Of a DNA stretch of 64,000 nt, positions 3,434 to 53,937 are shown piece by piece. The stretch comes from a virus, in the UHGV virus genome UHGV-0214148; one strand, given 5' to 3'. A program made the translations under genes and the position numbers. The first letter of the stretch is position 1, and each line of letters starts with the position of its first letter. The notes under the pieces are model-generated. The model did no database searches. It saw only the letters and a program-made list of their open reading frames with translations, and was not told where the DNA came from.

Positions 3434-6151
3434 ATGGACGATATTAGTAAATTAACGGGCGACCCCGCCGTAGCTGCAATTCTTCGTAAAACTACGGGCC
3501 CAGCACCCCAGCAACAACGCGGTACGCGTAGCGAGGGTGGTTCTACGCCAACACGTCAGGAACTTGCAGGAATTGTAAGTTCGCGTATTCGTACTATCAA
3601 AAATGCGGAACGTATCTTTGATGCGTTACCTGAACTCGAAACGATTGTTACCATTGCAACTTCGAGCTTGCTGTCGACAAAAGACTTAATCAACACCACG
3701 TTGATTTACGACAACATCGCAGACATTCCAATTGACTTACGTAATGACCTACTGACACCAACGCGTGATTATCATGATAACGTACGTCAATTACCTAAGA
3801 AATTATATCAGTGGATTTACGACGCGTTAAAAACAAAAGGCGCAAGTCCAGTGATGATAATCTCGGACAACGGTTTTGACCAGTTGTTCGGTTTAGACGC
3901 CAAAGTCGCTACCGAATCCGTACGTCGTTCTCAAGCTGCCTATTTCGAAGAACAGCTCGGTATTCTCGGTCCAATCAACGGGCAAGATGACGGGCAACGG
4001 GTGGGTGTGGAATCTATTCTGAGTCGTGTCCGTGGGCCTGTTAAAGGACCACAATCACTGAAAATCAATTTCAGTAACCATGATAAGATGTTCTCAGATA
4101 AGTTCGAAATGGACATCTCGATCACCGACAACCCACGTATCACGTTACTACCCCATGCTTATCGTCGAATCGCTCATGAGAACGCACGTACTGGTCTCTA
4201 CGGCCAATTAGAGCAAGCCGCATATGAAAAGCCTGCCACACCGACAGGTGCTACGCCGTATGAAGTTAATCAACAGTTTAACGACCGTCAGCGTGACGCG
4301 GCTGAAAAAGGCTTCATTAACTTAGGCGATCTGAACGAAGCGTACAAAGGTACACCAAAAACTCAGACTTATGGCGATATTCCGATTATTTCGATGAATG
4401 AAAACAACCAAATCGAATATTTCGAATGCCTATTGCCTGCTGAGTCTACCGCACCGTTGGTTATCGGCGACGACGTTCGTAACCCTATTGGGTTTCTGAC
4501 CATTATTGACGATATGGGTAACTTCATCAACTCACGTTCTTCACTTTACGGGGACGCGAACTTTATGAACTACCTTAATAACGACGGCATGACGGACAGT
4601 ATTATCAACCGCTCTAATTTGGGTTTGGGTAATACCTCTCGTATAACGCCAGAGATCGCCAACCGTTTAAGTGCCCGTTGTAGCGAGATTGCTGAGAACG
4701 AATTTACCCGTGCGTTAAGCCAGGCATTGGGTGGAGCTGAAATCAGCATGAAAATTACCGAAACTTTCGGTCGTATTCTGCTGGCACGTCACCTCGCAAA
4801 ACGTCACACACAGGTTGTCTATATCCCGGTTAATAACTTGTGCTACTTTGCAACGGACTTTAACGAAGATGGTATTGGGGTGTCTATCACTGAACGTTCC
4901 TTTATCATTTCTACGGTCAGGATGGCGCTGTTGTTCGCAACGATGAACTCTTCAGTGTTGAACTCAGCACGTCACATGCAATACGACATCGAGTTATCGC
5001 CGGACGATATGAACGGTCAGAAAACGGTTGACCAGGTTAAATCAGATATCCTTAACTCCTATAACCGTCGTTTACCGATGTGGGGTGATATCAATGACGC
5101 TTGGTCGATGGGGGCTAATGCCGGGATTGCATTTAACGTGACGGGTAATGAATACTACGCCAGTCATAAAGTGTCCGTTTCGGACACAACGCCTGAGTAT
5201 AAAGTGCCCGATCAACAAATCGATGAAAACTTACTCCGTCGTACTTGTCACATCGCGTGTGTAGACCCGGATCTTGTTTTGACGCCGGAAAACCTGGAAT
5301 TTGCTTCGCAGATTTATTCCAAGTCACTGCTGGTCACTCAGCAAATCGTGAAGAAACAAGAAATTCTGTCTACGCCGTTAACACGCTACGTGACAAACAG
5401 TTTGCAAGCCTCTCCTAAATTACAAGCAGAGTTGGTTCGTATTATTGTTGAATATATTCGCAATCAAAATCCTAATGTAACAGGTGAAGACTTGACCAAA
5501 CAAACGTCGGAGTATCTGGCGAAGTTCATCAACGGTATGAAGGTCACTTTACCACCACCAGACACATCAGCTTCTTCTTCACAAGCGGATCTGTTTGATA
5601 AACGCTATGAGTTCATTGAGAAACTGGCGGATCTGGTTGTTACCGACGATATTTCGAATATGCTTCAGAATGAAGGTATCGAAATGCAGCCTGATGATCT
5701 CAAGACGATGATTAAATCGTTCTATACGCGTAACTGGCTGCGTAATCAAGGCATCGAAACCGATCTGTTTGATTTGATCTACGACGAAGATAAACGTGGT
5801 GAAAACGTCAAGATGATTTCTGATGAAATCGCAGCAGCATCGAAGACGCTGATTCAGTTAGCTAAACGCACAACAGGTAAAGTTGAAACCTTAGCAAAAG
5901 CGGCTGATTTGAATCCTGAGGACGCCAATAACTTCGGCGGGGGTAGCGACTTCGGTGGCGGCTCTGAAGACGACGGTGGCTTAGGGGGCGATGAGGACTT
6001 AGGTGGTGACGATATGGGCGGTGATGAAGACTTGGACATGTCTGATGATGAAACGACGGAAACCGATACGACAACGGAAGAAGACGTTTCTGCTGAAGAC
6101 ACAGACGAGACGGATACCGGTACAGACGACAACGCCGATGAAACTCTCTAA
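3434..6151 (+). CDS. hypothetical large protein (905 aa) with acidic Gly/Asp/Glu/Thr-rich C-terminal tail
   Basis: ORF track; GGAGA Shine-Dalgarno 5 nt upstream of ATG 3434; followed by intrinsic terminator at 6157-6221. C-terminal ~70 aa low complexity (GGGSDFGGGSEDDGG...TDETDTGTDDNADETL). Confidence 0.85.
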   Translation: MDDISKLTGDPAVAAILRKTTGPAPQQQRGTRSEGGSTPTRQELAGIVSSRIRTIKNAERIFDALPELETIVTIATSSLLSTKDLINTTLIYDNIADIPIDLRNDLLTPTRDYHDNVRQLPKKLYQWIYDALKTKGASPVMIISDNGFDQLFGLDAKVATESVRRSQAAYFEEQLGILGPINGQDDGQRVGVESILSRVRGPVKGPQSLKINFSNHDKMFSDKFEMDISITDNPRITLLPHAYRRIAHENARTGLYGQLEQAAYEKPATPTGATPYEVNQQFNDRQRDAAEKGFINLGDLNEAYKGTPKTQTYGDIPIISMNENNQIEYFECLLPAESTAPLVIGDDVRNPIGFLTIIDDMGNFINSRSSLYGDANFMNYLNNDGMTDSIINRSNLGLGNTSRITPEIANRLSARCSEIAENEFTRALSQALGGAEISMKITETFGRILLARHLAKRHTQVVYIPVNNLCYFATDFNEDGIGVSITERSFIISTVRMALLFATMNSSVLNSARHMQYDIELSPDDMNGQKTVDQVKSDILNSYNRRLPMWGDINDAWSMGANAGIAFNVTGNEYYASHKVSVSDTTPEYKVPDQQIDENLLRRTCHIACVDPDLVLTPENLEFASQIYSKSLLVTQQIVKKQEILSTPLTRYVTNSLQASPKLQAELVRIIVEYIRNQNPNVTGEDLTKQTSEYLAKFINGMKVTLPPPDTSASSSQADLFDKRYEFIEKLADLVVTDDISNMLQNEGIEMQPDDLKTMIKSFYTRNWLRNQGIETDLFDLIYDEDKRGENVKMISDEIAAASKTLIQLAKRTTGKVETLAKAADLNPEDANNFGGGSDFGGGSEDDGGLGGDEDLGGDDMGGDEDLDMSDDETTETDTTTEEDVSAEDTDETDTGTDDNADETL

Positions 6152-6900: not shown

Positions 6901-8541
6901 TTAGTAACGCACCGGTGCGGTAATTTCACCATTGCTAAGCAGTGTATAGGATGCCGACGGGGTAGCCAGCTTCACAATAGCTTCAGGTGCGCGTTGGTTA
7001 ATTGCTTCATAGATACCGACAATAGGTTCAAACGCATTACCGAAGGAGGAAATCTCTACGATATTGCGACCTTTTGCAGACGGGTAATCCGCAGGCAGCT
7101 GAATGGTGTAAGTTACACGGCAAATTTCAATAGCACGATCGTTAGATTTCAGACGGAAGTGCAGCTTACGAACAGAACGTGCAACCAGCAAGCACAGTTC
7201 GCGGAAGAAATCCGCAGCCGTGGTTACGCCATTTTCACCGATAGTGCGCGGGAACAGCGTGTCACGGAAGTATTCGAGATCGCTTAAGTTACAATCGAAT
7301 TGTACAAATTTCGTACCTGGAATTCCTTTACCGTAGTTTGTCGCAACAGCAATCGCGTTATGAACCAAAACAGTGAGCGTTGCGTTAAACTGCTGACAGA
7401 ACTCCACACAGCTTTGTTTCAGTGTATCCGGCTCCTCTGCCTGAGTATTGAAATATTGCAGTAGGCGCTCAGACATTTTACGGATGCGGAACACCTCATC
7501 GATCGTACGCTTCAGCATTTCTTCAGGATCGTCAATATCGCGAATATCTTCGATACCATCGATTGCCTGGCGGGTGGCAGTATAAAATTCTTGAAGGTAA
7601 GTTTTGCTCGAATCCGTACTCACCATCGGGAACAATTTATACTCGCTTTCGGTTTTCACCATCACATCCGCTTCATCATAAACGCAATAATCGACGTCTT
7701 CATTATCGATGATTTCGTCAACCTTTTCTGACCAATTGTGATGGCTAGAATACGGTGAATTTTTGATGCGTTCATTGAGTTCTTTCGGCGTAAGAATATT
7801 TTTCTTAATCTGTTCTCTAAGTTCGTGATCTAAATAGTCTTCCACAATTTCCACCCGGAAATGATCGATGATAGGTTTATTGTAACGTTCGACAAGTTCT
7901 TCGATAGTTTTCTCGTCGAGCTCACGCGGCTTGTTAGCTTCCACCATAGACTGCGAAACAGTCGGTTTAGGCTGTGCCTGTTGCACGGGTTGCTGTGCAG
8001 GCTGGCCGAAGTTACCTTGCGGTTGCGCTGTTTGCTTCTGTGCCGCTGTGCGCGGATCGTAAGTTGACATTGGGATAGAACCCCCTTGTACCGCTGGTGC
8101 TGGTTGTGGACTACCATAGCCGCTGCCTGGGAAGCTAGACGCTGGCATCGCTAAGCTCGGAGACCCACCCATTGCTGGGCCACCAAAAGTGCTCGATTGC
8201 GCCATAAGCTGTTTAGCTTGTACCGCATACTGATTTGCCGTACGGAATTCCTGTTCCAGCTGGCTGTGAATACGCGGGTCCAGTGGCTGCATACCACGCC
8301 CCAGTAAGTCACTATACAGCGTCGATTTAAAAGTTGCCAGAATCGCCGATGCAGTTTCGTTATCTGGACGACGGTTGTATACAAACCACGTGGCGACGGT
8401 AACGGCATTATCCATGTATTTGTCGTCATTCAATCCAGCAGCACGTGCTTGATTACAAAGATACGATAAAAGTTCATCACGACCACTGGAGATCGTGCTA
8501 TAGATGTGGTTACGAATTACGTCTTTATTGACAGTTGCCAT
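6901..8541 (-). CDS. hypothetical protein (546 aa) with internal Gln/Pro/Gly-rich linker
   Basis: ORF track; AGGAG Shine-Dalgarno upstream of ATG 8541; low-complexity segment GGPAMGGSPSL...QPAQQPVQQAQPKP. Confidence 0.85.
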   Translation of the reverse strand: MATVNKDVIRNHIYSTISSGRDELLSYLCNQARAAGLNDDKYMDNAVTVATWFVYNRRPDNETASAILATFKSTLYSDLLGRGMQPLDPRIHSQLEQEFRTANQYAVQAKQLMAQSSTFGGPAMGGSPSLAMPASSFPGSGYGSPQPAPAVQGGSIPMSTYDPRTAAQKQTAQPQGNFGQPAQQPVQQAQPKPTVSQSMVEANKPRELDEKTIEELVERYNKPIIDHFRVEIVEDYLDHELREQIKKNILTPKELNERIKNSPYSSHHNWSEKVDEIIDNEDVDYCVYDEADVMVKTESEYKLFPMVSTDSSKTYLQEFYTATRQAIDGIEDIRDIDDPEEMLKRTIDEVFRIRKMSERLLQYFNTQAEEPDTLKQSCVEFCQQFNATLTVLVHNAIAVATNYGKGIPGTKFVQFDCNLSDLEYFRDTLFPRTIGENGVTTAADFFRELCLLVARSVRKLHFRLKSNDRAIEICRVTYTIQLPADYPSAKGRNIVEISSFGNAFEPIVGIYEAINQRAPEAIVKLATPSASYTLLSNGEITAPVRY

Positions 8542-8580: not shown

Positions 8581-10356
8581 TTAACGGCCAATCTTCGCAA
8601 TGTCTTCTTCGGTTGCTTGGATCAACTCGTTGAGTTTTGGATTACGTACCATCACCAGTTGGGTGTTCGTCTTCATATACGGATTGAGAATACCCGATTT
8701 AAACGGTGATGATTTCGGAATGTAATACACGTTACCACATTCCAGATGAGATGCAGAGGCATGTTTTGTCCGGTCATTAAGGTTAACCGTCTTACCGCCC
8801 TTGCTGTTACGTTTGGATTCTGTTTCTGTCTGGCTGATAGCATGGGTTGAAACCCCCAGCACCATAGACTCGGTAGAAGCGTTGAAATAACTTACACCGC
8901 CATTGCCGGTAATGTTGCGTAATACCAGGCTAGTTACAATGTCTTTATTCAACGCGCTGCGTATCATGTTCGCACAAGACTCCGGTGTTCGATTTTCCGT
9001 TTGTCCCAAGTGGAAACGAATCGCTGCGATGGTAGGCGTAAAGCCACGCTCACCCAATAACAGGTAATCTGTTACGGTCAGACGTTTTCCATACATTGAC
9101 GGAATATCACCTTGTTTCGTAAGGCGCGTTCTCACCATCAACTTCGTCGCGTACCAGAAGAAATCAAACATATCCATATCGTCCGGGATATCGGGATCTG
9201 ACATCATTAACTCACCACGGAATGTTGAGTTAACGTAGCGTTCGCACTCCGTATAGTGTTTCGTCATGCTGTGTGCCAGTTCAATATCGGACGGTTTAAG
9301 TCCAACAATACTTCTCCCCAAAATCTCCCGCCAAATTGCGGAGGAATTCAGGTTTACAACATCGTCCTCCATTGCAAGTTCGTTAATCGCGGTAAACAAC
9401 GGCGGTAAAGGAACAACGTTGCCGTTTTTAATCGCTTGCTTTCCGCAATAATAGTGCGCTGCTTTAAAGAATGCAGAAATCGCCACGAGTAATAAGTGCT
9501 CGTTTTGATCCCATCCCGCTTTATCGAGATTTGGTAAAGCCTCTGCAGGAACCGTCACTACGTACATAATCGACCGATTATGTTTAGGCTCACCTGAACT
9601 GATTACTACTTTTTTATCGAGATCGATTTCAGGTACTTTGAATGCAGGATATATCTCCACATCCACGCCAGTATAACGTTTGATGGCTTCCTTAAATCCA
9701 TAACGCCCGAATAGCCAGTACATTAACGGCTTTTCGTCCGTGTCAGGATGTGTGGCGTTTTTGGCTTTAAACAAATTGTTTGTTCCGGGCAAGAACAACT
9801 CTTCTTTCTTCCCATTCACTAAAATCCGTACCGGGTGCTTACAGAATTTTAATGACGCTTTACGTTTAAAGTCAAAATTAACAAACACCCCGCCGTGCTC
9901 ACGACAGATACCCGGCTGATGAATAACAGGTGCAACATGATACGTTGTTCCGTAATAGTTCATCAACCCACCACGACGAATGAAAGGCAAGTTAATCGGT
10001 CTTGAGATTGGTCTTGAGTCTCCAGGAATACGGAACGACGACATGACCATATACGCATCGGTATTAGCGATTGACATCACACCACGACGCTTATCCATCC
10101 TGCTGCTCTCTGAACGAGACAGCTTATAGATAAAAGTTTCGAACGGCGACATTAAACGAACACCCAACACGGCCAAGCCTTCAGGAACACGAGGGTTCTC
10201 TACAGGATGGTAATCTAGCTCACGTTTCAAGATACGATGTACACGATCGTGAATACCATCTTTGGCTTGTGTATAACCGACTCCTTCCGCAATCGCACGG
10301 TTAAAGGGTACTATTTTACCACTCTCTTTAAGCTTTTTGATTGCATCTTTAAACAC
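8581..10356 (-). CDS. hypothetical protein (591 aa)
   Basis: ORF track; co-oriented block. Confidence 0.85.
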   Translation of the reverse strand: MFKDAIKKLKESGKIVPFNRAIAEGVGYTQAKDGIHDRVHRILKRELDYHPVENPRVPEGLAVLGVRLMSPFETFIYKLSRSESSRMDKRRGVMSIANTDAYMVMSSFRIPGDSRPISRPINLPFIRRGGLMNYYGTTYHVAPVIHQPGICREHGGVFVNFDFKRKASLKFCKHPVRILVNGKKEELFLPGTNNLFKAKNATHPDTDEKPLMYWLFGRYGFKEAIKRYTGVDVEIYPAFKVPEIDLDKKVVISSGEPKHNRSIMYVVTVPAEALPNLDKAGWDQNEHLLLVAISAFFKAAHYYCGKQAIKNGNVVPLPPLFTAINELAMEDDVVNLNSSAIWREILGRSIVGLKPSDIELAHSMTKHYTECERYVNSTFRGELMMSDPDIPDDMDMFDFFWYATKLMVRTRLTKQGDIPSMYGKRLTVTDYLLLGERGFTPTIAAIRFHLGQTENRTPESCANMIRSALNKDIVTSLVLRNITGNGGVSYFNASTESMVLGVSTHAISQTETESKRNSKGGKTVNLNDRTKHASASHLECGNVYYIPKSSPFKSGILNPYMKTNTQLVMVRNPKLNELIQATEEDIAKIGR

Positions 10357-10366
10357 GCCATGCTCC

Positions 10367-11377
10367 TTACGTTAGCATCCCTATAAATGCGACACCCGCC
10401 GCCAAATACGCAGGGACAGATTTAAATAGGTCTGAGCCGTCCTTACGAATGTAAGAACGCGTCTCGTAGAATTCTTTACGCGCCTCAGCCCGTGACTTCG
10501 CTTCCAATTCCTGTTGCTTGAATGCTAAAGTCAATCGCTCCTTTTCTAAAGCCATGCTCTGTAGTTGTTTCTTGTGTTCCAATTCTAACTTGTCTTTTGC
10601 CGAATCCAAGCTTTCTAATTTTTCTTTGTACTGCTCCTCTAAACGTTGCTTAATCTCAAAGAGGCCGGGAACTGCTTCTTGCCATCGAAACGCGTCTGCC
10701 GCTGCCTCATCCTTAAATAATCTAAACGGTGAAGTAATGTCGTCAAATTCAAAATGAATCATTCGACTGCCTTCCACCCTCGTTCCACCTCCTATTATCA
10801 TGTAAACGCCCGGTTCATAATAGCGTGACGTTATTGGTTCGATTTTCATTTTCGTACCGTAGAAACGTAGCCACCGATAATTGTCAGGCTCGTCGTAGCG
10901 CTGCACAACAACAACACCCAATGTAAATTCAGTGCGCTCACCTCCAGGGCGCATAGTTGGGGGTTTACTATCTAAGCGTATCGGTGTTGTTGAGAAAGCA
11001 AAGCCTAACTGCTTTAGTACAACCAAATCTCCTCGCAGCAACGCACCAACGTCGTTTACTGCATACTCTAACGTTACCTCCCCTTTTTCTTTCAATTGGT
11101 CGCAAAAGCGAGAAAACTGTTTTCCCGGCATCAGTTCAGCAAACCCATTGAGATTCGCGCATCTTCCGTATGATTGATACGTCACGTAAACGATAACCCC
11201 ATGCTCATCAGCGGGGTTTTTCGAAGCATTTAAAATAAAGCTACCGCCACTGGTTTCAGTGACGTGGATAGGCACGCCAGTGTTATTTTCAAACGTAACA
11301 AGTTTCCTCAATCCAGACGTTTGACATAACGAGCGTTCAGAGATACTGGGCACCACATCAATATCAAGACGTTTCAT
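10367..11377 (-). CDS. hypothetical protein (336 aa) with central coiled coil and C-terminal hydrophobic anchor
   Basis: ORF track; Lys/Glu-rich heptad region (EIKQRLEEQYKEKLESLDSAKDKLELEHKK...) and C-terminal VPAYLAAGVAFIGMLT. Confidence 0.8.
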   Translation of the reverse strand: MKRLDIDVVPSISERSLCQTSGLRKLVTFENNTGVPIHVTETSGGSFILNASKNPADEHGVIVYVTYQSYGRCANLNGFAELMPGKQFSRFCDQLKEKGEVTLEYAVNDVGALLRGDLVVLKQLGFAFSTTPIRLDSKPPTMRPGGERTEFTLGVVVVQRYDEPDNYRWLRFYGTKMKIEPITSRYYEPGVYMIIGGGTRVEGSRMIHFEFDDITSPFRLFKDEAAADAFRWQEAVPGLFEIKQRLEEQYKEKLESLDSAKDKLELEHKKQLQSMALEKERLTLAFKQQELEAKSRAEARKEFYETRSYIRKDGSDLFKSVPAYLAAGVAFIGMLT

Positions 11378-11467
11378 GGGAACCCAAGCTAAATTTTAAT
11401 GATGACACATATCTTTAGTTTAAACTGTATTTTTTCCATACATACTCCTTTAAAACCAACTGGCCGT

Positions 11468-11490
11468 CTCCCTTTAATAATATCTATCCA
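11468..11490 (-). promoter_or_regulatory. promoter-like conserved motif, copy 5 (weakest)
   Basis: Minus-sense TGGATAGATATTATTAAAGGGAG, ~90 nt upstream of ATG 11377, immediately after the MCP terminator. Confidence 0.35.
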
Positions 11491-11491
11491 A

Positions 11492-11544
11492 AAAATAATA
11501 GAAAGAAAAAAAAATAAAAGGTCTAAGCCCCGAAGGGCTTAGAC
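11492..11544 (-). terminator. intrinsic terminator after putative capsid gene
   Basis: Stem gtctaagccc / gggcttagac (11521-11544) with 4-nt loop; on minus strand followed by CTTTTATTTTTTTTTCTTTC. Confidence 0.8.
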
Positions 11545-11559: not shown

Positions 11560-13854
11560 TTACTTACCAGCAGCAGCTTTGCCTTCGCCAGCAACGTTAC
11601 CTGCTACACCACCTTCGGTTTGTTTCTGACCGTTCTGTTCAACAGAAACATTGTAAGCCAGTTTTTCTTCAACCAGTTTGGTGATGCCTTTAACCCAGAT
11701 CAGACCAGTGATCGGGCAGTGGCAGATGTGCGCGTTACGCGGCTGTACGGCCAGCTCTTTAGAGGTAGAACCGTTACGCTGAATGTTGATGTTGGTAACC
11801 ATGATCGGAGACCAGAAGTGGTTACCCCAGTTCAGCACGTTGTAGGAACCATCGTCCGCAGTCGGAACTTTCAGGAACCATTGCAGACGACGAGTCCAGG
11901 AACCGTCAGCTGCGTTGTAGATACGCCAGCGGTCATCGTTGGTGGTGATCACTTCGTATTCGTAGCGATCGCCCAGCAGACGTTGGTCGCCCTGTACCAG
12001 CAGCAGCATAGATGCAGTCGGTTCGTCAGTTGCAATAACAACTTTCGGCAGAATGTCCGGATCGGCAGTGTACAGACGCAGCGCAGGAATGAAGCGAGAT
12101 TCCTGGATAGCCTGAGTTACCTGATTACCGATACGCTGTACCAGGCCCTGACGAGCGTTGATCAGTGCATCTTTGGTATCCAGGGACTGTACAACTTCAT
12201 CAACGTTGTAGTCAGACTCTTTGAACCACGGAGCAACCCAGTGACGGCCCAGACCACGAATGGCCGGTTTGTCCCACGGAGTGATCATGCTTGCAGCAGC
12301 GTTACGTACCGCTTCGGTGTAAGACAGCGTCTGAGTGATAGCCAGCTGTTCGTTACGGATGTTAACTGCGGAAATCAGGTCGTCCAGACGTTCGGTATCG
12401 TCGTATTCAACGCCAACCGGAGACTTGGTCAGGATCGGAGAACCGTATTGCAGTTTGTAGTTTTCTTGTTCCCAGATTGGGTCAAGCAGCAGACCCTGGG
12501 TACGACGGTTTTCGTTGGTACGAGTACCATCGAAGCGCCAGCCCATCAGTTCAAGTTTCAGACCGTCCAGGATAACTTTGCCGGTACCAGATTTGGTATC
12601 AACTTTGTTACCGGTAGCGTCGTACAGACCTTCGATTTCCAGTTTGTGACCAGCGATGTCAACTTTACCACCGAACTGACCGGTAGTGAACAGAGACATG
12701 TTGATGGTGATCACATAACGCAGGGTGTAGGAGTTCTGTTCCAGTGATTTCAGTGCCGGAATAGCTTCGCCTTTCCAGTCGGTGGTTTTCGCATTCAGAG
12801 AGAACGCAGTACGACGGAATTGCAGTACCAGCTCACGGCCATCACCTTCAGCAGGACGCTGGAAGGTTGCGAACTGCATGTCACGAACGTGCAGTTTGAT
12901 GAATTTACCTGCTTTCGCTTCTTCGGTCGGTTTACGTACGGAAATCAGCAGGCTGCCCAGAGCACAACCCGGTGCGATTTCATCAGTTTCGTCGTAACCT
13001 TCCTGAACGATACCCGGATGCGCAGACAGCTGGAACAGGTTCAGAGTGTCTTTAGCAAAGCTCAGGTAGTTAGTCGGGTACGGAGGTACACGACCCAGGC
13101 GAACAGATTCGTTCGGTACCAGTTCTTCGCTTACGAAGTATTCAGCGTTTTCACCGGTTTCCATTACGTAAGGAACGATGTTGATCGCTTCGTCCTGAAG
13201 AACGGTGTGGTCAGTCAGCGCTTCGTGCAGGTTACGACGATGATCTTCAACAACGTCTTTGGTCAGTAACGCGTGCATGACACCACGAGAAACGGTGGTC
13301 ACTTTGGTACGTACGGTAATACCAACATCGTTGGTGTCAACGGTGATGGTCGGGAACAGAGTCTCAGCAAAACGAGACTGAGTTTCCAGAGCACGTACGT
13401 TCAGCGTCCAGGTCAGACCCAGGTTTTTGTCGTAATCTTTGTTGGTGTAGTATTCCTGAGCAACAACCATACGCTCTTTGCCCCAGTCGCCGTTACCAGC
13501 TTGGGAACCAGGAATCGCAACGTCCAGGTTAAAACGGCTATGGAATTCTGGCTTAGCGTATTCTTGCGCTACTTTTTCTTGCAGGTCCATACCGTGACCA
13601 GCAGCACCCAGAATCATTGCAGAAGCAACTTCCGCAGCGTGGGACATTTTCTTACCGCCAGCAAACGCGTTTGCGTAGTGCTGTGCAGCATCGTCACGCA
13701 GGGTACCAAAAACTTTCGTGTTGCTACGTACAGACTCACCAGCAACGATGGTGTTCCACATTTCGCCAGCACTGTTGTTACTAATGACGCTTTGTACCAG
13801 CGAGTTACCAGCTTGTACGAGTTTCTCCAGATTAGAGATTCGGGTATCTTTCAT
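11560..13854 (-). CDS. putative major capsid protein (764 aa)
   Basis: ORF track; strongly biased highly-expressed-type codon usage (produces a 375-aa antisense ORF artefact); strong terminator downstream; size matches phiKZ-like jumbo-phage capsid proteins. Function is inference. Confidence 0.55.
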   Translation of the reverse strand: MKDTRISNLEKLVQAGNSLVQSVISNNSAGEMWNTIVAGESVRSNTKVFGTLRDDAAQHYANAFAGGKKMSHAAEVASAMILGAAGHGMDLQEKVAQEYAKPEFHSRFNLDVAIPGSQAGNGDWGKERMVVAQEYYTNKDYDKNLGLTWTLNVRALETQSRFAETLFPTITVDTNDVGITVRTKVTTVSRGVMHALLTKDVVEDHRRNLHEALTDHTVLQDEAINIVPYVMETGENAEYFVSEELVPNESVRLGRVPPYPTNYLSFAKDTLNLFQLSAHPGIVQEGYDETDEIAPGCALGSLLISVRKPTEEAKAGKFIKLHVRDMQFATFQRPAEGDGRELVLQFRRTAFSLNAKTTDWKGEAIPALKSLEQNSYTLRYVITINMSLFTTGQFGGKVDIAGHKLEIEGLYDATGNKVDTKSGTGKVILDGLKLELMGWRFDGTRTNENRRTQGLLLDPIWEQENYKLQYGSPILTKSPVGVEYDDTERLDDLISAVNIRNEQLAITQTLSYTEAVRNAAASMITPWDKPAIRGLGRHWVAPWFKESDYNVDEVVQSLDTKDALINARQGLVQRIGNQVTQAIQESRFIPALRLYTADPDILPKVVIATDEPTASMLLLVQGDQRLLGDRYEYEVITTNDDRWRIYNAADGSWTRRLQWFLKVPTADDGSYNVLNWGNHFWSPIMVTNINIQRNGSTSKELAVQPRNAHICHCPITGLIWVKGITKLVEEKLAYNVSVEQNGQKQTEGGVAGNVAGEGKAAAGK

Positions 13855-13866
13855 TTGTTTAATACC

Positions 13867-14391
13867 TTAATGAGATAAATGACATGCGTATAATTGCGTC
13901 AGCACTTCGTTAGCGGCAAACTGCGTTGAGGTACTGAAGCAGTCATCCACGACGCGAGTCTTGGTACGCATATATTTAAAAAGTTCTGCGCAGAACATCT
14001 TTTTCGCAGCGTGGTCTTCACCCGAAGAAAAACCCGAACCGGACTTCGCTTCTGCAAATGACGCCACAATCGTATCACCACGTTGAGTAAACACCCAACG
14101 TACGCGACAAGGAATTGTTTCCCCATATAAATCGTCAAGGGAAACCTTTTCGCCTGATTCGACCAGACGTAACACCTGATCATAATATTTACCTGGAAGC
14201 ACAGGCGGAGCCATCAGTGCTTTATAAATAGCAGAACGACTTACTTCAGGTAAGATAATAGAACTGAAACCATTCGGACAGTCATATAACCAGTTAAAGA
14301 ACCCTGCCTGGAGCAATTCTATACTTTTAACGGCAGCGCCTTTATCTATGTTAGGTTGAACTTCCCACGGTGGACTAAAACGAATTTGCAT
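13867..14391 (-). CDS. hypothetical protein (174 aa), upstream of putative capsid gene
   Basis: ORF track; only 12 nt before capsid ATG, so co-transcribed; start lies 14 nt from a divergent plus-strand start. Confidence 0.75.
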   Translation of the reverse strand: MQIRFSPPWEVQPNIDKGAAVKSIELLQAGFFNWLYDCPNGFSSIILPEVSRSAIYKALMAPPVLPGKYYDQVLRLVESGEKVSLDDLYGETIPCRVRWVFTQRGDTIVASFAEAKSGSGFSSGEDHAAKKMFCAELFKYMRTKTRVVDDCFSTSTQFAANEVLTQLYACHLSH

Positions 14392-14404
14392 TTAAGGATG
14401 CTCC

Positions 14405-15967
14405 ATGAATAACAAAATGATGTTGATAACCGCCTTAGCCACATTATACGCTGAAAGTCTTCTGACCGATCCTGAAAAGGACCACGACATCATAAGAAAA
14501 GTGCTGTTAGAGGCTAAGCTTCCTGATTACGCAGAAGAAGGTGACGAACGTGCCGCCCTCGTCGAAATCAAGGATATCATCACATCCATCATAGACGGCG
14601 GTATGCCTTACGACCACACAAACGTCATGAAACGTTTGAAACTGGCCACTACGCAAATACGTCCTCTATACGATACGATTACCAAATTCCTGGAAGATGA
14701 TATTCCAGAAGAACCAGAAGCACGCATCGAGCATCTTAATCGCCAAGTAGCACAATACTACTTTCAGTTACGTCAAGCTATTCAAGGCGTACAACTGAAA
14801 CAAAAATTGGGTCGTACGTTAGGCGCACTGAACGGCACTGAAACGCGTGTTGATTTACAAACGGCGCTCAACGACCTTAAGGATACCTTATCCACGTTCA
14901 GTGAACGCTCTCATAATAAGATTCCTTCTCTGGTAGGGGAATTGATTACTGACAATAAAGCACCCTTCGTACATGTATTCGACTCTATCAGTAAGAAAGC
15001 GGCAGGGAACGGGTTGCGTACGGGGTGGAAAGCAATTAACCAAATGCTTGGCTGTAACAAAGGGATCACTGAAGAACTCTGGCTGATGCCTGCTCTCCCC
15101 TTTAACTGTAAGTCATTATTCAGTTTATTGCTCTCTATTAGCATTCCTGTATTCAACACCCCAGAAAAGGTGATGGCAAATGTTAAAGGTGACTTACAAC
15201 CGGTTATTCTGGATTTAAGTTTAGAAAACGAATTAGATGTTAACTTGGCTTACGCGTATCAAGCACTTTACGGACACTTTGAAGGTACAGCTCCGGTAAT
15301 GGTTGCACCTGAAACGGCAACTGACGAAGAAAAAGCGCTACACAATGCACAAATGTCAGATTACCTCTGTAGTAAAATGCGGGCAAACGGTTGGGAGTAT
15401 ATTTTCCAAAAACACACAAACTCCGATTTTAAAATTCACTATTTGAATGATTTGATTTTAGATTTAAAACGTCGAGGTTATCATGTAGCTGGAATACGCG
15501 GAGACTATTTCGGTACTATCAGCAAAGCAGGACACGGTAACGGTATTGCGGGTAGTGACATTAAAGAAATTTATCGTATCGCGCGAAACATCCAAGTGGT
15601 ACGTAATCGTGGTTTCCTCTTAGCACCACACCAAATCTCACCAGAAGGCAAAAAATTAAAAGCACTCGACCCAGCAAGTTTCTGTAAGAGCTTACCTGGT
15701 CGTGGTCTTTACGACAACTGCTCTAGCTTAGACAACGAAGCTGACGGTGAGATGTATTTTAACAAACGTGTCGTCAGCGGACACAGCTATTTAGAAGTAC
15801 AACGCGGTAAACACCGTACCATTATTGACACCAAAGAAGCTTATCATTATACTGTAATACCTTTCCGCGATGTTGGCATTTTGCCATGGGATTGTGATAA
15901 AGAAGAAACTGTAACAGCCTCGTCGATTAACGTATTTACCGGCGGCATGGGTGACGAACTCTTTTGA
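14405..15967 (+). CDS. hypothetical protein (520 aa)
   Basis: ORF track; AAGGA Shine-Dalgarno 6 nt upstream; followed by hairpin 15972-15989. Confidence 0.85.
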   Translation: MNNKMMLITALATLYAESLLTDPEKDHDIIRKVLLEAKLPDYAEEGDERAALVEIKDIITSIIDGGMPYDHTNVMKRLKLATTQIRPLYDTITKFLEDDIPEEPEARIEHLNRQVAQYYFQLRQAIQGVQLKQKLGRTLGALNGTETRVDLQTALNDLKDTLSTFSERSHNKIPSLVGELITDNKAPFVHVFDSISKKAAGNGLRTGWKAINQMLGCNKGITEELWLMPALPFNCKSLFSLLLSISIPVFNTPEKVMANVKGDLQPVILDLSLENELDVNLAYAYQALYGHFEGTAPVMVAPETATDEEKALHNAQMSDYLCSKMRANGWEYIFQKHTNSDFKIHYLNDLILDLKRRGYHVAGIRGDYFGTISKAGHGNGIAGSDIKEIYRIARNIQVVRNRGFLLAPHQISPEGKKLKALDPASFCKSLPGRGLYDNCSSLDNEADGEMYFNKRVVSGHSYLEVQRGKHRTIIDTKEAYHYTVIPFRDVGILPWDCDKEETVTASSINVFTGGMGDELF

Positions 15968-18419: not shown

Positions 18420-18443
18420 CTCACCTAGGTAATATATATCTGA
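18420..18443 (-). promoter_or_regulatory. promoter-like conserved motif, copy 1
   Basis: Minus-sense TCAGATATATATTACCTAGGTGAG, ~48 nt upstream of ATG 18372. Confidence 0.5.
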
Positions 18444-26675: not shown

Positions 26676-26699
26676 CTCACTAAGGTAATATCTATCTGA
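26676..26699 (-). promoter_or_regulatory. promoter-like conserved motif, copy 2
   Basis: Minus-sense TCAGATAGATATTACCTTAGTGAG, between paralog-1 terminator and ATG 26624. Confidence 0.5.
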
Positions 26700-33405: not shown

Positions 33406-36359
33406 TGAGTTCTACGACTTACGATACTTTGGCAAAGAACATATTGTTGTTTGCCCACCATCCGGCAGCGATGCAAACACTGCTCTTGAATCAGCTTCTG
33501 GATGTAGAAGACGCCGAAGGCCAAATAGTGTTACGTGACCCAACAGACCCTGTTGTTTATTTGGCGGAAATGGGGACAATGTTGGGCCATGCAACGCTTA
33601 TGGGGTTGCAAGAATCAGTGCCAAAGACATTTCCATCAATGGCGCAAACGTACGACGACCTGTTCCGACATATGTCCGATGTGGACTACGTTGATGTGTT
33701 CGCCCAACCTTCAACCACCGAGCTGTTGTTATTAATCGATGTTGATAGCTTAATCTCCAAGGCGTACCCTTTACAGATTGCGGGTGTGCGTAAGGTTGTT
33801 ATCCCACGTGACACAGTTTTCACGGTGTCAGGTTACACCTTTGCCATCCAGTACCCGATTGAAATCAGGGTACTTCCTTACGGCACCAATGAAAACCCAG
33901 CGTTTCAAGTTCTTTGGATTACCGAAACACAGTCGCCTATTTCTCCTGTGTCGACGAATGCGCTGGATTGGGAATTGACATCGTCTAACACCACGGCCTC
34001 GCAACTACTGGCAATCCATATCCCGGTTATGCAGTATGCGGTGAAGAACGAAAGCGACACCGTTGCGGGGAAAAATACCTTTGTCATGACCCGCCATTAC
34101 ACTAACAAATTTTTCTACGTAAGGGTGTGGATGAAATCAACCAACGATAACAAGTGGGTTGAAATTCAGCATACGCACAGTCGTGACGTTTACGACCCCA
34201 ACACCCCAACCGCGTTAATCCAGGTCGGTGACGGTGTTATACGGTGTACTATCCCCTCGATCTACATGGCGAAGAATTTGGTCAGTGGTGAAATTCGTAT
34301 GGATATCTACACGACCTTAGGGCCTTTAAGTGTCGATATCTCGGCTTATCCGTCTGACGAATACACGTTCACGTTGCGTGATTTAAACGGCGAATACGAC
34401 GAAAACTACGTTAACCCGATTAAGAGTTTTTCCATCAAACAGATGGCTGCAAAAGCAGGTAAAATGTTGTCAGGTGGTCGTAGCCAGCTCACGTTCGAAG
34501 ATTTGCGTACACGTGTAGTCAACAACGCTGTAGGTGCACGAAAACTCCCTGTAACGGAGAAACAATTAGAAGCAACGGTTTCTGACTACGGTCTAACGTT
34601 GTCGAAACCAAACGACTATGTTACTAGCCGTACATACTTCTTAACGGCACCGATGCTCGAATCGACAATTCCTAATGTCAGTTCTCCCATCGGGACGATC
34701 ACGGCACCGTTCTATTTCTCCTGGAATGAATTGGTTAATCTACCGACGGTAAAGGTTAACGGTAATCGCCTGACGATTCTTCCTGACACACTTTATCGGT
34801 TCACCGACACCAGCCTGACGGTTGATGCGGAGATGACGGTCTTGGCAAAAACCATGCGAAAAGAAGATTTGATTAACGCGGCCAACGCTAATCGTTATCT
34901 CTTTACACCATTCCATTACGTTGTGGATATCAACAATAAAGCCATTGACGTTCGTATTTATCAATTAGATAAACCGACGTTAAACTCCAAACGCTTTATT
35001 GCTACTAACGTAAGCACGGAACTCAGTGTGGTAACGGCCGACTACACTATCGAAAAGACCGAAGCAGGTTATGTTTTGCGTACCGTAACGAAGTCGGAGG
35101 CACCTTATCAAGCACTGACTGACGACCAAGTTTTTGCGCAGCTATCGTTCCGTCCGCGTAACGCAGACAACACTTTAGCGTACATCAACGGTACGTTAGT
35201 CGGTAAGCAGGGTAGCGAACGTGTATGGGAGTTCCTACTGGAAACCAACCTGGACGTTGACCGTAATGACGAATTGGTACTAACGAATACGCGTATTAGT
35301 AGTAGCACGCCAACGGAAACGCCTGTACCGCTGACAACAGACTTCAACCTGTTCTACGGCTGCACGGGTTACTACCCTGGCAATTACGAACGTGCGGAAA
35401 TGGATGCGTTAATCACTGCCCCATCACGTGATGCGATAGGTATTACCCATGAAATTTTCAAAATCGAATTGGGTAAGGCAATGACGTACTACTGGCGTAA
35501 AGCGCGTGCTGTTACTGACAGCATTAACTACCAGTATTACGAACAAGACGTGATGGCAACGTGGGAGATCGATGTTGTTAAACGCGATGAGAATGGTGTA
35601 CCAATCTATACTTACGATGCAGGCCGCACACCACCACTTCAGATCACGTACGAACATCGTAAAGGCGATCCTAAACTCGACGAAGCTGGGGAACAGATCG
35701 TCCTACATCGTGAAGGCGACTTAGTTAAAGACGAGTTTGGTAATCCGAAAATTGCGAAATCACGTTCTATCAAATTCCGGAGTGAGATGGCAGTGTTCGA
35801 TGCGCGATATAAATTCGCGACGACGTCTTCTGCAAAATCGTATCTGAATGAAGTTATCGAAAACATCGTTAACTACGTCACGGTAATACTCCCGACTTTG
35901 AAGCCTATGTTGTTAGAACGCACCGAAGGTTACTTTGTGCCGATTACAACAATGGGGTATATCGACGCTCGTACAGAGGACGGGGTAGTAACACCTGTCC
36001 CTGCGGAAAACCAGTTCACAGTACGCTATTACCTAACGGCTGCTAACCGTAATAACACCGAGCTCTTAACGCAGATTCGTAAGAAAACTTCTCAGGTTAT
36101 CAACGATTACTTGGGTAGCCATCTAACAATCTCTGCAACAGAAATCGGTAATGCGTTGAGTGAAACCCTCGATGCGTCTATTATCGGTGTTGAACTCGAT
36201 GCTATGGGGCCAGATAAAGACATGCGTCTCTTTACCGTTGTCTCAGAAGCATCAAGAGCAACTATAGGTAAAAAGCTGGACATTGAGGCCAGCGGCGACA
36301 TCGGGCTTAAAGACGATATCGTTATTGTTTATAACCGCCACGATACTACCGCCGATTAA
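33405..36359 (+). CDS. hypothetical large protein (984 aa), possibly structural
   Basis: ORF track; coupled to upstream gene; strong terminator downstream. Confidence 0.85.
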   Translation: MSSTTYDTLAKNILLFAHHPAAMQTLLLNQLLDVEDAEGQIVLRDPTDPVVYLAEMGTMLGHATLMGLQESVPKTFPSMAQTYDDLFRHMSDVDYVDVFAQPSTTELLLLIDVDSLISKAYPLQIAGVRKVVIPRDTVFTVSGYTFAIQYPIEIRVLPYGTNENPAFQVLWITETQSPISPVSTNALDWELTSSNTTASQLLAIHIPVMQYAVKNESDTVAGKNTFVMTRHYTNKFFYVRVWMKSTNDNKWVEIQHTHSRDVYDPNTPTALIQVGDGVIRCTIPSIYMAKNLVSGEIRMDIYTTLGPLSVDISAYPSDEYTFTLRDLNGEYDENYVNPIKSFSIKQMAAKAGKMLSGGRSQLTFEDLRTRVVNNAVGARKLPVTEKQLEATVSDYGLTLSKPNDYVTSRTYFLTAPMLESTIPNVSSPIGTITAPFYFSWNELVNLPTVKVNGNRLTILPDTLYRFTDTSLTVDAEMTVLAKTMRKEDLINAANANRYLFTPFHYVVDINNKAIDVRIYQLDKPTLNSKRFIATNVSTELSVVTADYTIEKTEAGYVLRTVTKSEAPYQALTDDQVFAQLSFRPRNADNTLAYINGTLVGKQGSERVWEFLLETNLDVDRNDELVLTNTRISSSTPTETPVPLTTDFNLFYGCTGYYPGNYERAEMDALITAPSRDAIGITHEIFKIELGKAMTYYWRKARAVTDSINYQYYEQDVMATWEIDVVKRDENGVPIYTYDAGRTPPLQITYEHRKGDPKLDEAGEQIVLHREGDLVKDEFGNPKIAKSRSIKFRSEMAVFDARYKFATTSSAKSYLNEVIENIVNYVTVILPTLKPMLLERTEGYFVPITTMGYIDARTEDGVVTPVPAENQFTVRYYLTAANRNNTELLTQIRKKTSQVINDYLGSHLTISATEIGNALSETLDASIIGVELDAMGPDKDMRLFTVVSEASRATIGKKLDIEASGDIGLKDDIVIVYNRHDTTAD

Positions 36360-36360
36360 G

Positions 36361-36412
36361 AAAAAATAATAAAAGTTACCCTACTCCCGGAGGAGTAGGG
36401 TAATCTTTTTTT
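36361..36412. terminator. bidirectional intrinsic terminator (stem shared with 41721-41770)
   Basis: A-run, stem ttaccctactcc (36376-36387) / ggagtagggtaa (36392-36403), T-run 36404-36412. Confidence 0.8.
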
Positions 36413-53913: not shown

Positions 53914-53937
53914 TTCAGTAGGATAATATCTATCTCA
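53914..53937 (-). promoter_or_regulatory. promoter-like conserved motif, copy 3
   Basis: Minus-sense TGAGATAGATATTATCCTACTGAA, ~22 nt upstream of beta gene ATG 53892; sits in the divergent region with plus gene 53956. Confidence 0.5.

What the first reader, a model, noticed from the sequence alone, without database searches (positions are those of the whole stretch)
10367..11377. Coiled-coil protein with C-terminal membrane anchor downstream of a promoter-like motif
A ~220-aa N-terminal region, a ~60-aa Lys/Glu-rich heptad segment and a terminal hydrophobic helix give a tail-anchored architecture. It is the first gene after the capsid terminator and is preceded by the weakest motif copy.
Basis: seen in the sequence. 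Interest (0 to 1): 0.35.

Follow-up and report, generated by a model that had tools for sequence, protein, structure and literature searches.

The report
Tail-anchored stalk protein of nucleus-forming phages
This gene encodes an uncharacterised protein found only in nucleus-forming jumbo phages; its last 17 residues probably pin it to a membrane while a rigid helical stalk holds a globular head about 12 nm away, which offers a way to test how these phages use host membranes.

Summary
The ORF is real: window 10367-11377, minus strand, 336 aa. It lies in an SPN3US/Asesino-like jumbo phage, between the phiKZ-type major capsid gene and a non-virion RNA polymerase (nvRNAP) subunit gene. It belongs to PHROG 7286, the Chimalliviridae-specific core gene cg35 (SPN3US gp76, Goslar gp040, phiKZ gp122), whose function is unknown.

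AlphaFold2 (pLDDT 86.7) gives a beta-rich head (residues about 22-229) with no match in the PDB. A single helix then runs from residue 239 to 335.

The helix is charged, but hydrophobic heptad periodicity is at chance level, so "coiled coil" is not shown.

The terminal hydrophobic run is only marginally hydrophobic here. It is nevertheless conserved in about 150 distant relatives, together with a strict juxtamembrane signature (RKDxYExRSxxRKDxSExxKxxP). The phiKZ/PhiPA3/Phabio clade keeps the head but lacks the stalk, signature and anchor.

The upstream motif (GATAGATATTAY; 7 copies against 0.47 expected) also precedes nvRNAP operons, so it is probably an early promoter.

My best reading is an early-expressed, tail-anchored membrane tether. 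Its exact role is inferred, not shown. I rate it a new member of a known but unstudied family, of moderate interest.

The parts
10367..11377 (-). Complete ORF, 336 aa (stop codon 10367-10369). Member of PHROG 7286, Chimalliviridae core gene cg35 (SPN3US gp76, Asesino gp93, Goslar gp040, phiKZ gp122).
   Evidence: (E 5.8e-115).
10691..11377 (-). Residues 1-229: beta-rich globular head domain ending in the conserved 'F..(D/T).(E)A' motif. This is the only part shared with phiKZ gp122, PhiPA3 gp138 and Phabio gp189.
   Evidence: AF2 model at pLDDT 86.7. hhalign A2 vs A6: probability 99%, E 8e-18, covering the head only. No PDB fold match, best E 0.3. BFVD matches are all uncharacterised jumbo-phage proteins.
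10481..10663 (-). Residues 239-299: highly charged, proline- and glycine-poor alpha-helical stalk. A straight helix over residues 239-319 would be about 12 nm long.
   Evidence: AF2 gives a continuous helix 239-335, with pLDDT 90-98 over residues 250-300. Charged fraction is 0.41 in the target and 0.44 as family median; P+G is 1.3%. Heptad periodicity is not significant. Stalk length in the family ranges from 67 to 114 residues, clustering at steps of about 3.6 residues.
10412..10480 (-). Residues 300-322: juxtamembrane signature RKEFYETRSYIRKDGSDLFKSVP. Family consensus is RKDxYExRSxxRKDxSExxKxxP. It is the best-conserved part of the family.
   Evidence: Position frequencies in 158 sequences: R 100%, K 99%, D 89%, S 82%, E 88%, K 99%, P 92%. 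The same residues are invariant in A1.
10370..10420 (-). Residues 320-336: C-terminal hydrophobic helix SVPAYLAAGVAFIGMLT, the putative tail anchor. Small residues (A/G/T) line one face.
   Evidence: In 149 relatives the uncharged run has a median of 17 residues (102 have 16-17). A median of 4 residues, mostly K/R, follow it.
11477..11488 (-). GATAGATATTAT: promoter-like motif (probable early, virion-RNAP type), about 100 nt upstream of the ATG.
   Evidence: 7 copies with at most 1 mismatch against 0.47 expected. Other copies precede RNAP beta-subunit operons. The motif is also present upstream of the SPN3US and Asesino orthologues. It fits the published description of jumbo-phage early promoters (PMC7598289).
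11521..11544 (-). Intrinsic-terminator-like hairpin (10 pairs, 6 GC) followed by a T-run. It closes the capsid gene transcript.
   Evidence: Conserved in the 81%-identity relative.
11389..11439 (-). 16-codon upstream ORF (MEKIQFKLKICVIIKI) with a strong AAGGAG Shine-Dalgarno 5 nt upstream. Its stop lies 11 nt before the target ATG. The target ATG itself has only GGG at -8 to -6.
   Evidence: Read from the sequence. The ORF and its stop position are kept, with amino-acid changes, in relative L040. Translation has not been tested.
8581..10356 (-). Downstream gene, 10 nt after the target stop: nvRNAP beta/beta'-like subunit (phiKZ gp123-like, PHROG 2943). Probably co-transcribed with the target.
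   Evidence: The same adjacency is seen in 28 of 31 metagenomic loci.
11560..13854 (-). Upstream gene: phiKZ-type major capsid protein.
   Evidence: PF25620, E 4e-209. PHROG 3231.

Best explanation
The ORF encodes a non-virion protein of the Chimalliviridae-specific core family cg35.

Proposed architecture:
- A cytoplasmic beta-rich head domain of a fold not seen in the PDB.
- A rigid, highly charged alpha-helical stalk of about 80 residues (about 12 nm).
- A strictly conserved juxtamembrane signature.
- A 16-17-residue C-terminal hydrophobic helix that acts as a tail anchor in a lipid membrane, either the inner membrane or a compartment derived from it. One face of this helix is lined with small residues, which suggests that anchors pack against each other.

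Proposed expression: the gene is the first of an operon that continues into an nvRNAP subunit gene. It is probably transcribed early from a virion-RNAP-type promoter. Its own translation may be throttled through a short upstream ORF.

Proposed function: a membrane tether or adaptor that holds its head domain at a fixed distance and orientation from the membrane, to bind a phage partner needed early in infection.

Status of each step:
- Shown: the ORF, family membership, synteny, the predicted fold, the conserved C-terminal module, and the enrichment of the motif.
- Inferred: membrane insertion, early timing, oligomerisation, and the tethering role.
For: Family and context:
- PHROG 7286 at E 6e-115.
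- Orthologues occupy the same position in SPN3US and Asesino.
- Listed as core gene cg35 (Goslar gp040, phiKZ gp122, RAY gp001) and marked unique to chimallin-encoding phages (PMC10299810 Table S3).
- In 31 metagenomic loci, a capsid gene lies upstream in 29 and an nvRNAP subunit gene lies downstream in 28.

Architecture:
- AF2 pLDDT 86.7, with a single helix 239-335.
- 375 relatives at E <= 1e-3. Among the 150 listed, almost all end in the signature followed by a 16-17-residue uncharged run and a short K/R tail.
- Goslar gp040 has the same layout with a longer ER/K-like stalk.
- No other window protein has a comparably hydrophobic C-terminal 17-mer (0 of 48).
- There is no N-terminal signal-like segment.

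Timing:
- The motif is enriched 15-fold and is shared with RNAP beta-subunit operons.
- It is conserved before the orthologues.
- It matches the published description of early promoters, and nvRNAP genes are early genes (PMC7598289).

Relevance to infection:
- Both antisense oligomers against phiKZ 122 reduced phage propagation ('+'). Knock-down strongly altered phage transcription at 30 min (PMC12571901).

Not a virion protein, as far as could be checked:
- phiKZ gp122 carries no structural note, unlike its neighbours.
- Goslar gp40 is not mentioned in the main text of the Goslar virion structure and proteomics paper, which I searched.
Against: - The anchor is only marginally hydrophobic. For the target, KD is 1.61 and a recalled Hessa sum is +3.4 kcal/mol. 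The family median is +1.7, and only 13% of members are <= 0. No dedicated TM predictor was available.
- The phiKZ, PhiPA3 and Phabio orthologues lack the stalk, signature and anchor. These phages still form early-infection vesicles and assemble capsids on the membrane. The head domain's function therefore does not strictly need a membrane anchor.
- The phiKZ knock-down phenotype is mild. It could be a polar effect on gp123, which starts 10 nt downstream.
- The early timing rests on a motif, not on transcript data.
- No partner of the head domain was identified.
Confidence: 0.5

Rival explanations
1. Membrane platform for procapsid assembly. The tail-anchored protein sits in the inner membrane, and its head recruits portal, scaffold or capsid protein. 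This would explain why chimallivirus capsids start to assemble on the inner membrane. It would be a functional analogue of membrane-initiated prohead assembly in T4.
For: - The gene is adjacent to the major capsid gene in all lineages examined.
- Partially assembled capsids are seen on the inner membrane, and no anchoring factor was named in the passages of the review that I read (PMC12908238).
- The architecture suits a tether.
Against: - A terminator separates it from the capsid gene.
- Its promoter motif is the one used by nvRNAP operons.
- The phiKZ-clade orthologues have no anchor, although their capsids also assemble at the membrane.
- The phiKZ knock-down affected transcription.
- Core-gene blocks are syntenic throughout the family anyway, so adjacency is weak evidence.
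Confidence: 0.17
2. Not a membrane protein. The Ala/Gly-rich C-terminal helix and the conserved charged signature form a protein-protein module. This could be the core of a homo-oligomeric bundle, or a helix that docks into a phage partner such as the nuclear shell. The protein would then be soluble, like phiKZ gp122.
For: - Hydrophobicity is marginal on a translocon-type scale.
- The run is only 16-17 residues long.
- Small residues line one face.
- Stalk length is quantised in whole helical turns, which suggests fixed helix-helix geometry.
- The phiKZ-clade orthologues work without any hydrophobic tail.
- PhiPA3 gp138 and 201phi2-1 gp202 are mentioned in a phage-nucleus interaction-network paper that I could not open.
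Against: - The hydrophobic run is always at or within a few residues of the C-terminus, is free of charges, and is flanked by K/R on both sides. That is the classic tail-anchor pattern.
- Many relatives are clearly hydrophobic, with KD 19-mer values of 2.0-2.6.
- AF2 does not fold the helix back onto the head.
Confidence: 0.2
3. A dedicated factor of the non-virion RNA polymerase. The head domain would bind, chaperone or sequester the neighbouring nvRNAP subunit. The membrane anchor would be a lineage-specific way of controlling when that subunit is released.
For: - The gene lies immediately next to the nvRNAP subunit gene in 28 of 31 loci, 10 nt apart in the window.
- It shares a promoter class with other nvRNAP genes.
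- Knock-down of phiKZ 122 gave strong transcription effects, listed alongside nvRNAP subunits.
Against: - In that study the 122 profile was not reported to cluster with ChmA, nvRNAP and PicA.
- The effect may be polar.
- The review I consulted (PMC7598289) describes the nvRNAP as built from beta/beta'-like subunits. From my own recollection, the purified phiKZ enzyme has five subunits that do not include gp122.
- nvRNAP acts inside the nucleus, where a membrane-anchored protein cannot go.
Confidence: 0.08
4. An accessory membrane protein for host takeover, superinfection exclusion or lysis control.
For: It appears to be an early, membrane-directed, non-virion protein.
Against: - Such genes are usually small, variable and non-core. 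This one is a family-wide core gene with a conserved head.
- Its topology is the opposite of spanins.
- Its large cytoplasmic domain is unlike holins.
- It has no PADLOC or Pfam match.
Confidence: 0.05

Closest known systems
Chimalliviridae core gene cg35: SPN3US gp76, Asesino gp93, Goslar gp040, RAY gp001, phiKZ gp122, PhiPA3 gp138 (PHROGs 7286, 7727, 15024)
   Same: - Sequence family (E 6e-115 to PHROG 7286).
- Same position between the capsid gene and the nvRNAP subunit gene.
- Same head domain.
- The SPN3US, Asesino and Goslar proteins share the stalk, signature and hydrophobic tail.
   Different: - Only 49-54% identical to the nearest isolated phages.
- The phiKZ, PhiPA3 and Phabio proteins share only the head and lack the stalk, signature and anchor.
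- No member has an assigned function.
Eukaryotic tail-anchored tethers VAP-A/B and MOSPD2 (MSP beta-sandwich head, coiled coil, C-terminal TM)
   Same: Same order of parts, and the same logic of a head held off a membrane by a helical stalk.
   Different: - No homology. Foldseek matches to MSP domains are insignificant (E 0.5-1.9, probability <= 0.08).
- No heptad coiled coil was detected.
- This is an analogy only.
Bacterial C-tail-anchored proteins ElaB, YqjD and YgaM (DUF883)
   Same: A helical, charged cytoplasmic part followed by a Gly/Ala-rich C-terminal anchor ending in basic residues (resemblance recalled from memory).
   Different: - No Pfam match to DUF883 or to any other family, in the target or in 130 relatives.
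- Those proteins have no large beta-rich head.
ER/K single alpha-helix (SAH) spacers
   Same: A long, proline-free, charged helix of variable length. Goslar gp040 carries RRRDEEAKRKHEEF-type repeats.
   Different: - The target stalk is only 41% charged, with 11 i/i+4 opposite-charge pairs in 72 positions.
- Stalk length varies in whole helical turns, which a free monomeric spacer would not require.
Membrane-initiated prohead assembly in T4 (portal gp20 with gp40 and YidC)
   Same: A possible functional parallel, because chimallivirus capsids also start to assemble on the inner membrane.
   Different: No sequence or structural relation was tested or found. The timing and operon context point away from a capsid role.

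Membership tests
Chimalliviridae core gene cg35 (PHROG 7286 and relatives) | Significant full-length sequence match to the family profile | tested here: met
   PHROG 7286 at E 5.8e-115, covering residues 1-335 of 336. 62 phage records match by tblastn.
Chimalliviridae core gene cg35 (PHROG 7286 and relatives) | Conserved position between the phiKZ-type capsid gene and the gp123-like nvRNAP subunit gene | tested here: met
   Seen in the window and in SPN3US, Asesino, phiKZ, PhiPA3, Phabio and Goslar. Also seen in 28-29 of 31 IMG/VR loci.
Chimalliviridae core gene cg35 (PHROG 7286 and relatives) | Head domain homologous to phiKZ gp122 | tested here: met
   hhalign A2 vs A6: probability 99%, E 8.2e-18, 224 aligned columns. 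Foldseek BFVD hits to the 201phi2-1 and Phabio proteins.
Chimalliviridae core gene cg35 (PHROG 7286 and relatives) | Found only in chimallin-encoding (nucleus-forming) phages | tested here: inconclusive
   All named hits are jumbo phages of this group. Table S3 of PMC10299810 marks the gene as unique to them. I did not look for chimallin in this window or in the metagenomic contigs.
Tail-anchored membrane proteins | A single hydrophobic segment within about 30 residues of the C-terminus, and no other TM or signal peptide | tested here: met
   Uncharged run 320-336 ends at the last residue. The next-best KD 19-mer is 1.27, inside the head. In the family, the run is followed by a median of 4 residues.
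Tail-anchored membrane proteins | Segment hydrophobic and long enough to span a bilayer | tested here: inconclusive
   Target: 17 residues, KD 1.61, Wimley-White -2.9, recalled Hessa sum +3.4 kcal/mol. Relatives: KD up to 2.6, Hessa median +1.7. TMHMM or DeepTMHMM were not available.
Tail-anchored membrane proteins | Actual post-translational insertion with the N-terminus in the cytoplasm | not testable with these tools
   Needs fractionation, extraction and topology assays.
Canonical (heptad) coiled coil | Hydrophobic a/d periodicity of about 3.5 residues sustained over several heptads | tested here: not met
   Target: power at 3.4-3.6 is not above shuffles (p = 0.62), and the best register changes along the helix. 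Family: 3.4% and 8.8% of 148 sequences reach p <= 0.05. COILS, MARCOIL or DeepCoil were not available.
Canonical (heptad) coiled coil | Long uninterrupted alpha-helix | tested here: met
   AF2 helix 239-335, with pLDDT 90-98 in its centre. P+G is 1.3% in family stalks.
ER/K single alpha-helix domain | Very high E/K/R content with dense i/i+4 salt bridges | tested here: inconclusive
   41% charged, with 11 opposite-charge i/i+4 pairs in 72 positions in the target. Goslar gp040 does carry ER/K-like repeats.
VAP/MOSPD2-type MSP-domain tethers | MSP beta-sandwich head | tested here: not met
   Foldseek matches to MSP domains have E 0.5-1.9 and probability <= 0.08.
DUF883 (ElaB/YqjD/YgaM) | Pfam profile match | tested here: not met
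   No Pfam family at E <= 0.1 for the target. None is shared by the 130 relatives.

The most novel reading that the evidence does not exclude
The protein is made among the first phage products and inserts post-translationally into the lipid vesicle that encloses the injected genome (the early phage infection vesicle), or into the inner membrane beside it. Its head, held at a fixed distance on the stalk, recruits a phage component such as chimallin. It would thereby link the membrane-bound early compartment to the protein-bound nucleus. That would make it the first phage-encoded membrane protein with a defined role in this handover. The phiKZ clade would have replaced the lipid anchor with another mode of attachment.
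Probability: 0.1. Interest if true: 0.85.

Novelty: new member of a known kind. Interest (0 to 1): 0.5.

Why it matters
Nucleus-forming jumbo phages depend on membranes at two poorly understood steps. The injected genome first sits in a lipid vesicle, and capsids begin to assemble on the inner membrane. In the literature I could reach, no phage-encoded membrane protein has been assigned to either step.

This gene belongs to the small set of core genes found only in these phages. Knock-down of its phiKZ orthologue impairs infection. In most lineages (SPN3US-like, Erwinia phages, Goslar and hundreds of metagenomic relatives) the protein carries a conserved tail-anchor module. The standard Pseudomonas models lack that module, which may be why it has gone unnoticed.

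SPN3US has amber-mutant genetics and Goslar has cryo-tomography. A direct test of what a membrane-tethered core protein does is therefore feasible.

Tried and rejected
- Sequence search of the PDB, with the single protein and with the 130-sequence profile. Only insignificant coiled-coil-type matches appeared, best E 0.21.
- Foldseek against the PDB, with a weak model (pLDDT 67) and a good one (pLDDT 86.7). Nothing scored below E 0.03 and E 0.3 respectively.
- Pfam on the target and on all 130 relatives, and PADLOC. No family was found, only scattered low-complexity hits.
- A second database search with the alignment added no named or cellular homologues.
- Sigma-70 promoter scan of the region: nothing in the intergenic space.
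- Heptad tests were negative.
- Amphipathic-helix test of the phiKZ, PhiPA3 and Phabio C-termini, to see whether they could bind membranes peripherally. Moments of 0.40-0.47 were not exceptional within those proteins, so this is inconclusive.
- The stalk-length quantisation is strong when all sequences are counted (R 0.65-0.76). It is not significant on distinct values only, and control segments also beat the jitter null. I therefore treat it as suggestive.
- Literature searches for SPN3US gp76, phiKZ gp122 and Goslar gp40/gp040 found no functional study.
- The SPN3US virion proteomics supplements do not use gp labels, so the absence of 'gp76' there says nothing.
- The search for related loci with the broad alignment failed for lack of a conserved stretch. 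A narrower alignment worked.
- Plus-strand ORFs inside the gene (10518-10757 and 10932-11177) were considered and dismissed as shadows of the conserved minus-strand gene.
Full report
**What is there**

Window 10367-11377 holds a 336-codon ORF on the minus strand. Full-length alignment with ten homologues supports the annotated start.

The surrounding genes identify the window as a phiKZ-like jumbo phage of the SPN3US/Asesino lineage:
- a divergent DnaB-like helicase (PF20307);
- a phiKZ gp119-like gene;
- a phiKZ-type major capsid protein (PF25620, E 4e-209) immediately upstream;
- a gp123-like 'polymerase' (an nvRNAP subunit, PHROG 2943) 10 nt downstream;
- a gp124-like protein after that.

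The same gene order occurs in SPN3US, Asesino, phiKZ, PhiPA3, Phabio and Goslar. In 31 IMG/VR contigs that encode distant relatives, a capsid gene lies upstream in 29 and the nvRNAP subunit gene lies downstream in 28.

The exact protein is encoded on roughly 225-kb metagenomic contigs and is indexed in 136 blocks of the assembly collection.

**Family**

The protein matches PHROG 7286 (unknown function) end to end at E 6e-115, and PHROG 7727 weakly. It has no Pfam family. The nearest isolated phages are Asesino (54% identity) and SPN3US gp76 (49%).

Prichard et al. list this position as core gene cg35 (Goslar gp040, phiKZ gp122, RAY gp001), 'hypothetical', and mark it as unique to chimallin-encoding phages (PMC10299810 Table S3).

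A profile search of 1.8 billion representative proteins found 375 relatives at E <= 1e-3, mostly 330-400 aa long.

A profile-profile comparison with phiKZ gp122, PhiPA3 gp138 and Phabio gp189 gives 99% probability (E 8e-18). The match covers the N-terminal domain only.

**Structure**

With an 11-sequence alignment AF2 was uncertain (pLDDT 67). With 130 sequences it was confident (pLDDT 86.7).
- The head (residues about 22-229) is beta-rich with two short helical stretches.
- One uninterrupted helix then runs from residue 239 to 335.
- The head has no significant match in the PDB by sequence or by fold.
- In BFVD it matches only uncharacterised proteins of jumbo phages: Kwan, Eowyn, RP12, Noxifer, PhiEaH1, Phabio, Psa21, pEt-SU, 201phi2-1 and others.
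- The few invariant head residues (for example N31, P132, G190 and A227 across 130 sequences) do not look like a catalytic set. This last point is my inference.

**The 'coiled coil'**

The helix is 41% charged and almost free of Pro and Gly. Its hydrophobic residues do not keep a heptad register.
- Power at 3.4-3.6 residues is no better than shuffles (p = 0.62), and the best register drifts along the helix.
- Across 148 relatives, only 3-9% reach p <= 0.05, which is the chance rate.
- Goslar gp040 carries ER/K-like repeats in a stalk about twice as long. Some relatives insert extra 11-residue 'RKDxxxERSxx' units.
- Stalk length in 121 representatives ranges from 67 to 114 residues. The common classes are 75, 82, 85, 89, 93, 96, 100 and 107.
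- These classes differ by steps of 3-4 residues. The Rayleigh R is 0.65-0.76 at a period of about 3.6, against 0.24-0.27 for two control segments.
- That pattern suggests a rigid helix whose angular register between head and anchor matters. The signal is not corrected for phylogeny and fades when only distinct lengths are counted, so I treat it as suggestive.

**The anchor**

The last 17 residues (SVPAYLAAGVAFIGMLT) carry no charge. By hydropathy alone they are marginal:
- KD 19-mer is 1.61, Wimley-White is -2.9 kcal/mol, and an unweighted Hessa sum (scale recalled from memory) is +3.4 kcal/mol.
- Seven of 48 other window proteins contain an internal 17-mer at least as hydrophobic. None has one in its last 45 residues.

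The family comparison is what decides the matter:
- In 149 relatives the uncharged run has a median of 17 residues (102 have 16-17).
- It sits at the C-terminus, followed by a median of 4 mostly basic residues.
- It is often clearly hydrophobic, with KD up to 2.6.
- Small residues recur at positions 12, 15/16, 19 and 22/23 of the module, which lie on one helical face.

Just before the run lies the most conserved part of the whole family: RKDxYExRSxxRKDxSExxKxxP. Here R is 100%, K 99%, K 99% and P 92% conserved in 158 sequences that otherwise share about 17% identity.

This pattern fits a tail anchor with a specific juxtamembrane function. It does not prove insertion into a membrane.

The phiKZ, PhiPA3 and Phabio proteins end instead in a short, charged, mildly amphipathic tail.

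**Expression signals**

- The capsid gene stop is followed by a GC-rich hairpin and T-run at 11521-11544.
- Next comes GATAGATATTAT at 11477-11488. This 12-mer occurs 7 times in the window with at most one mismatch, against 0.47 expected. Six copies are on the gene-dense minus strand.
- The other copies precede, among others, the operon of two RNAP beta-like subunits (51655-53892 and 49556-51655) and the block upstream of it.
- The copies before the SPN3US and Asesino orthologues are intact.
- The target's copy has a perfect core but divergent flanks.
- A review of jumbo-phage RNA polymerases states three relevant points (PMC7598289). A conserved AT-rich motif of about 10 nt can be found upstream of early operons in each such phage. 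Middle and late promoters cannot be found this way. The nvRNAP genes are early genes.
- I therefore infer that the target is an early gene co-transcribed with the nvRNAP subunit. No transcript data exist for this phage.
- Between the motif and the ATG lies a 16-codon ORF with a strong Shine-Dalgarno, ending 11 nt before the target ATG. The target ATG has only a weak GGG.
- The whole intergenic region is 94% identical to that of a relative whose protein is 81% identical, and the small ORF is retained there.

**Functional clues from the literature**

- In phiKZ, both antisense oligomers against gene 122 reduced phage propagation ('+').
- Knock-down of 122 is listed with ChmA, nvRNAP subunits, PicA, 124 and 151 as producing strong effects on phage transcription at 30 min (PMC12571901). 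Polarity on gp123 is not excluded.
- phiKZ gp122 carries no structural-protein note, unlike many of its neighbours.
- Goslar gp40 does not appear in the main text of the virion structure and proteomics preprint.
- Capsids of these phages begin to assemble on the inner membrane (PMC12908238), and the injected genome first resides in a lipid vesicle.
- I found no paper that assigns a function to any member of the family.
- Two papers mention PhiPA3 gp138 and/or 201phi2-1 gp202, but I could not open them.

**Interpretation**

The best-supported reading is an early-expressed, non-virion, tail-anchored membrane protein. Its novel head domain is held about 12 nm from the membrane on a rigid charged helix, and it acts as a tether or adaptor.

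The architecture and family assignment are well supported. Membrane insertion is probable, at about 0.6-0.65. The early timing is probable. The specific role is a guess.

The rivals are:
- a membrane platform for procapsid assembly (favoured by position, disfavoured by operon context and by the anchor-less phiKZ clade);
- a soluble protein whose hydrophobic tail is a protein-protein module;
- an nvRNAP-dedicated factor;
- an accessory takeover or exclusion protein.

**Novelty**

The gene is a new member (49-54% identical to isolated phages) of a catalogued but unstudied family. In the literature I could reach, three things had not been described: the conserved stalk, signature and tail-anchor module; its absence from the Pseudomonas model phages; and the likely early-operon context. 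This is of moderate interest, because it makes a membrane-related step of the nucleus-forming phage life cycle directly testable.

Noticed in passing
window 11389-11439 (-): A 16-codon upstream ORF (MEKIQFKLKICVIIKI) with a strong AAGGAG ribosome-binding site lies between the promoter-like motif and the target ATG, which itself has a weak site. The ORF is retained with four amino-acid changes in an 81%-identity relative. SPN3US has a different 27-codon ORF in the equivalent place. This may indicate translational coupling or attenuation.
   Followed up: partly
window 11477-11488, 18429-18440, 26685-26696, 53923-53934, 57687-57698, 59098-59109 (all -); 35435-35446 (+): The motif GATAGATATTAY occurs 7 times against 0.47 expected. 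It has an extended consensus (AT-rich, then GAGATAGATATTAYCYTAGTGA) and lies upstream of nvRNAP-subunit and other operons. It is probably the early, virion-RNAP promoter of this phage. The copy at 57687 lies inside the 57432-59060 gene and could be an internal promoter. The plus-strand copy at 35435 is inside a gene and may be a chance match.
   Followed up: partly
window 6901-8541 (-): The gp124-like protein (546 aa, PHROG 8185) contains a long low-complexity Gly/Pro/Ser/Gln-rich stretch, with a 30-residue uncharged run starting at residue 116. Knock-down of its phiKZ counterpart (124) also strongly affected phage transcription in the antisense screen.
   Followed up: no
window 14391-14405: The gp119-like gene (minus strand) and the DnaB-like helicase gene (plus strand) diverge with only 13 nt between their start codons. 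Their promoters must therefore lie inside each other's coding sequence.
   Followed up: no
L002 (Asesino) 5081-5890; L001 (SPN3US) 5750-5761 and 5948-5959: The capsid-to-target spacer is variable. Asesino carries an extra 269-aa gene (gp92) with its own motif copy. SPN3US has two motif copies and a small ORF. The window phage has one copy and a 16-codon ORF.
   Followed up: partly
P0158, P0099, P0156 (distant relatives): A few family members continue for 40-80 residues beyond the anchor with Gly/Ala/Ser-rich hydrophobic sequence. P0158 weakly matches a tape-measure PHROG there. These members may have more than one membrane segment.
   Followed up: no
window 36411-38081 (-) and 38536-39870 (-): Two other proteins of unknown function (PHROGs 8131 and 2767) have the most hydrophobic internal segments in the window: KD 2.31 at residue 119, and a 24-residue uncharged run at residue 314. 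They are possible further membrane proteins of this phage.
   Followed up: partly
L041, L042 (ENA metagenome contigs of about 224.6-225.0 kb): The identical protein occurs on contigs listed in 136 blocks of the public assembly collection, with several contigs near 225 kb. This phage, or very close relatives, is common in sequenced samples, and its genome is about 225 kb.
   Followed up: no
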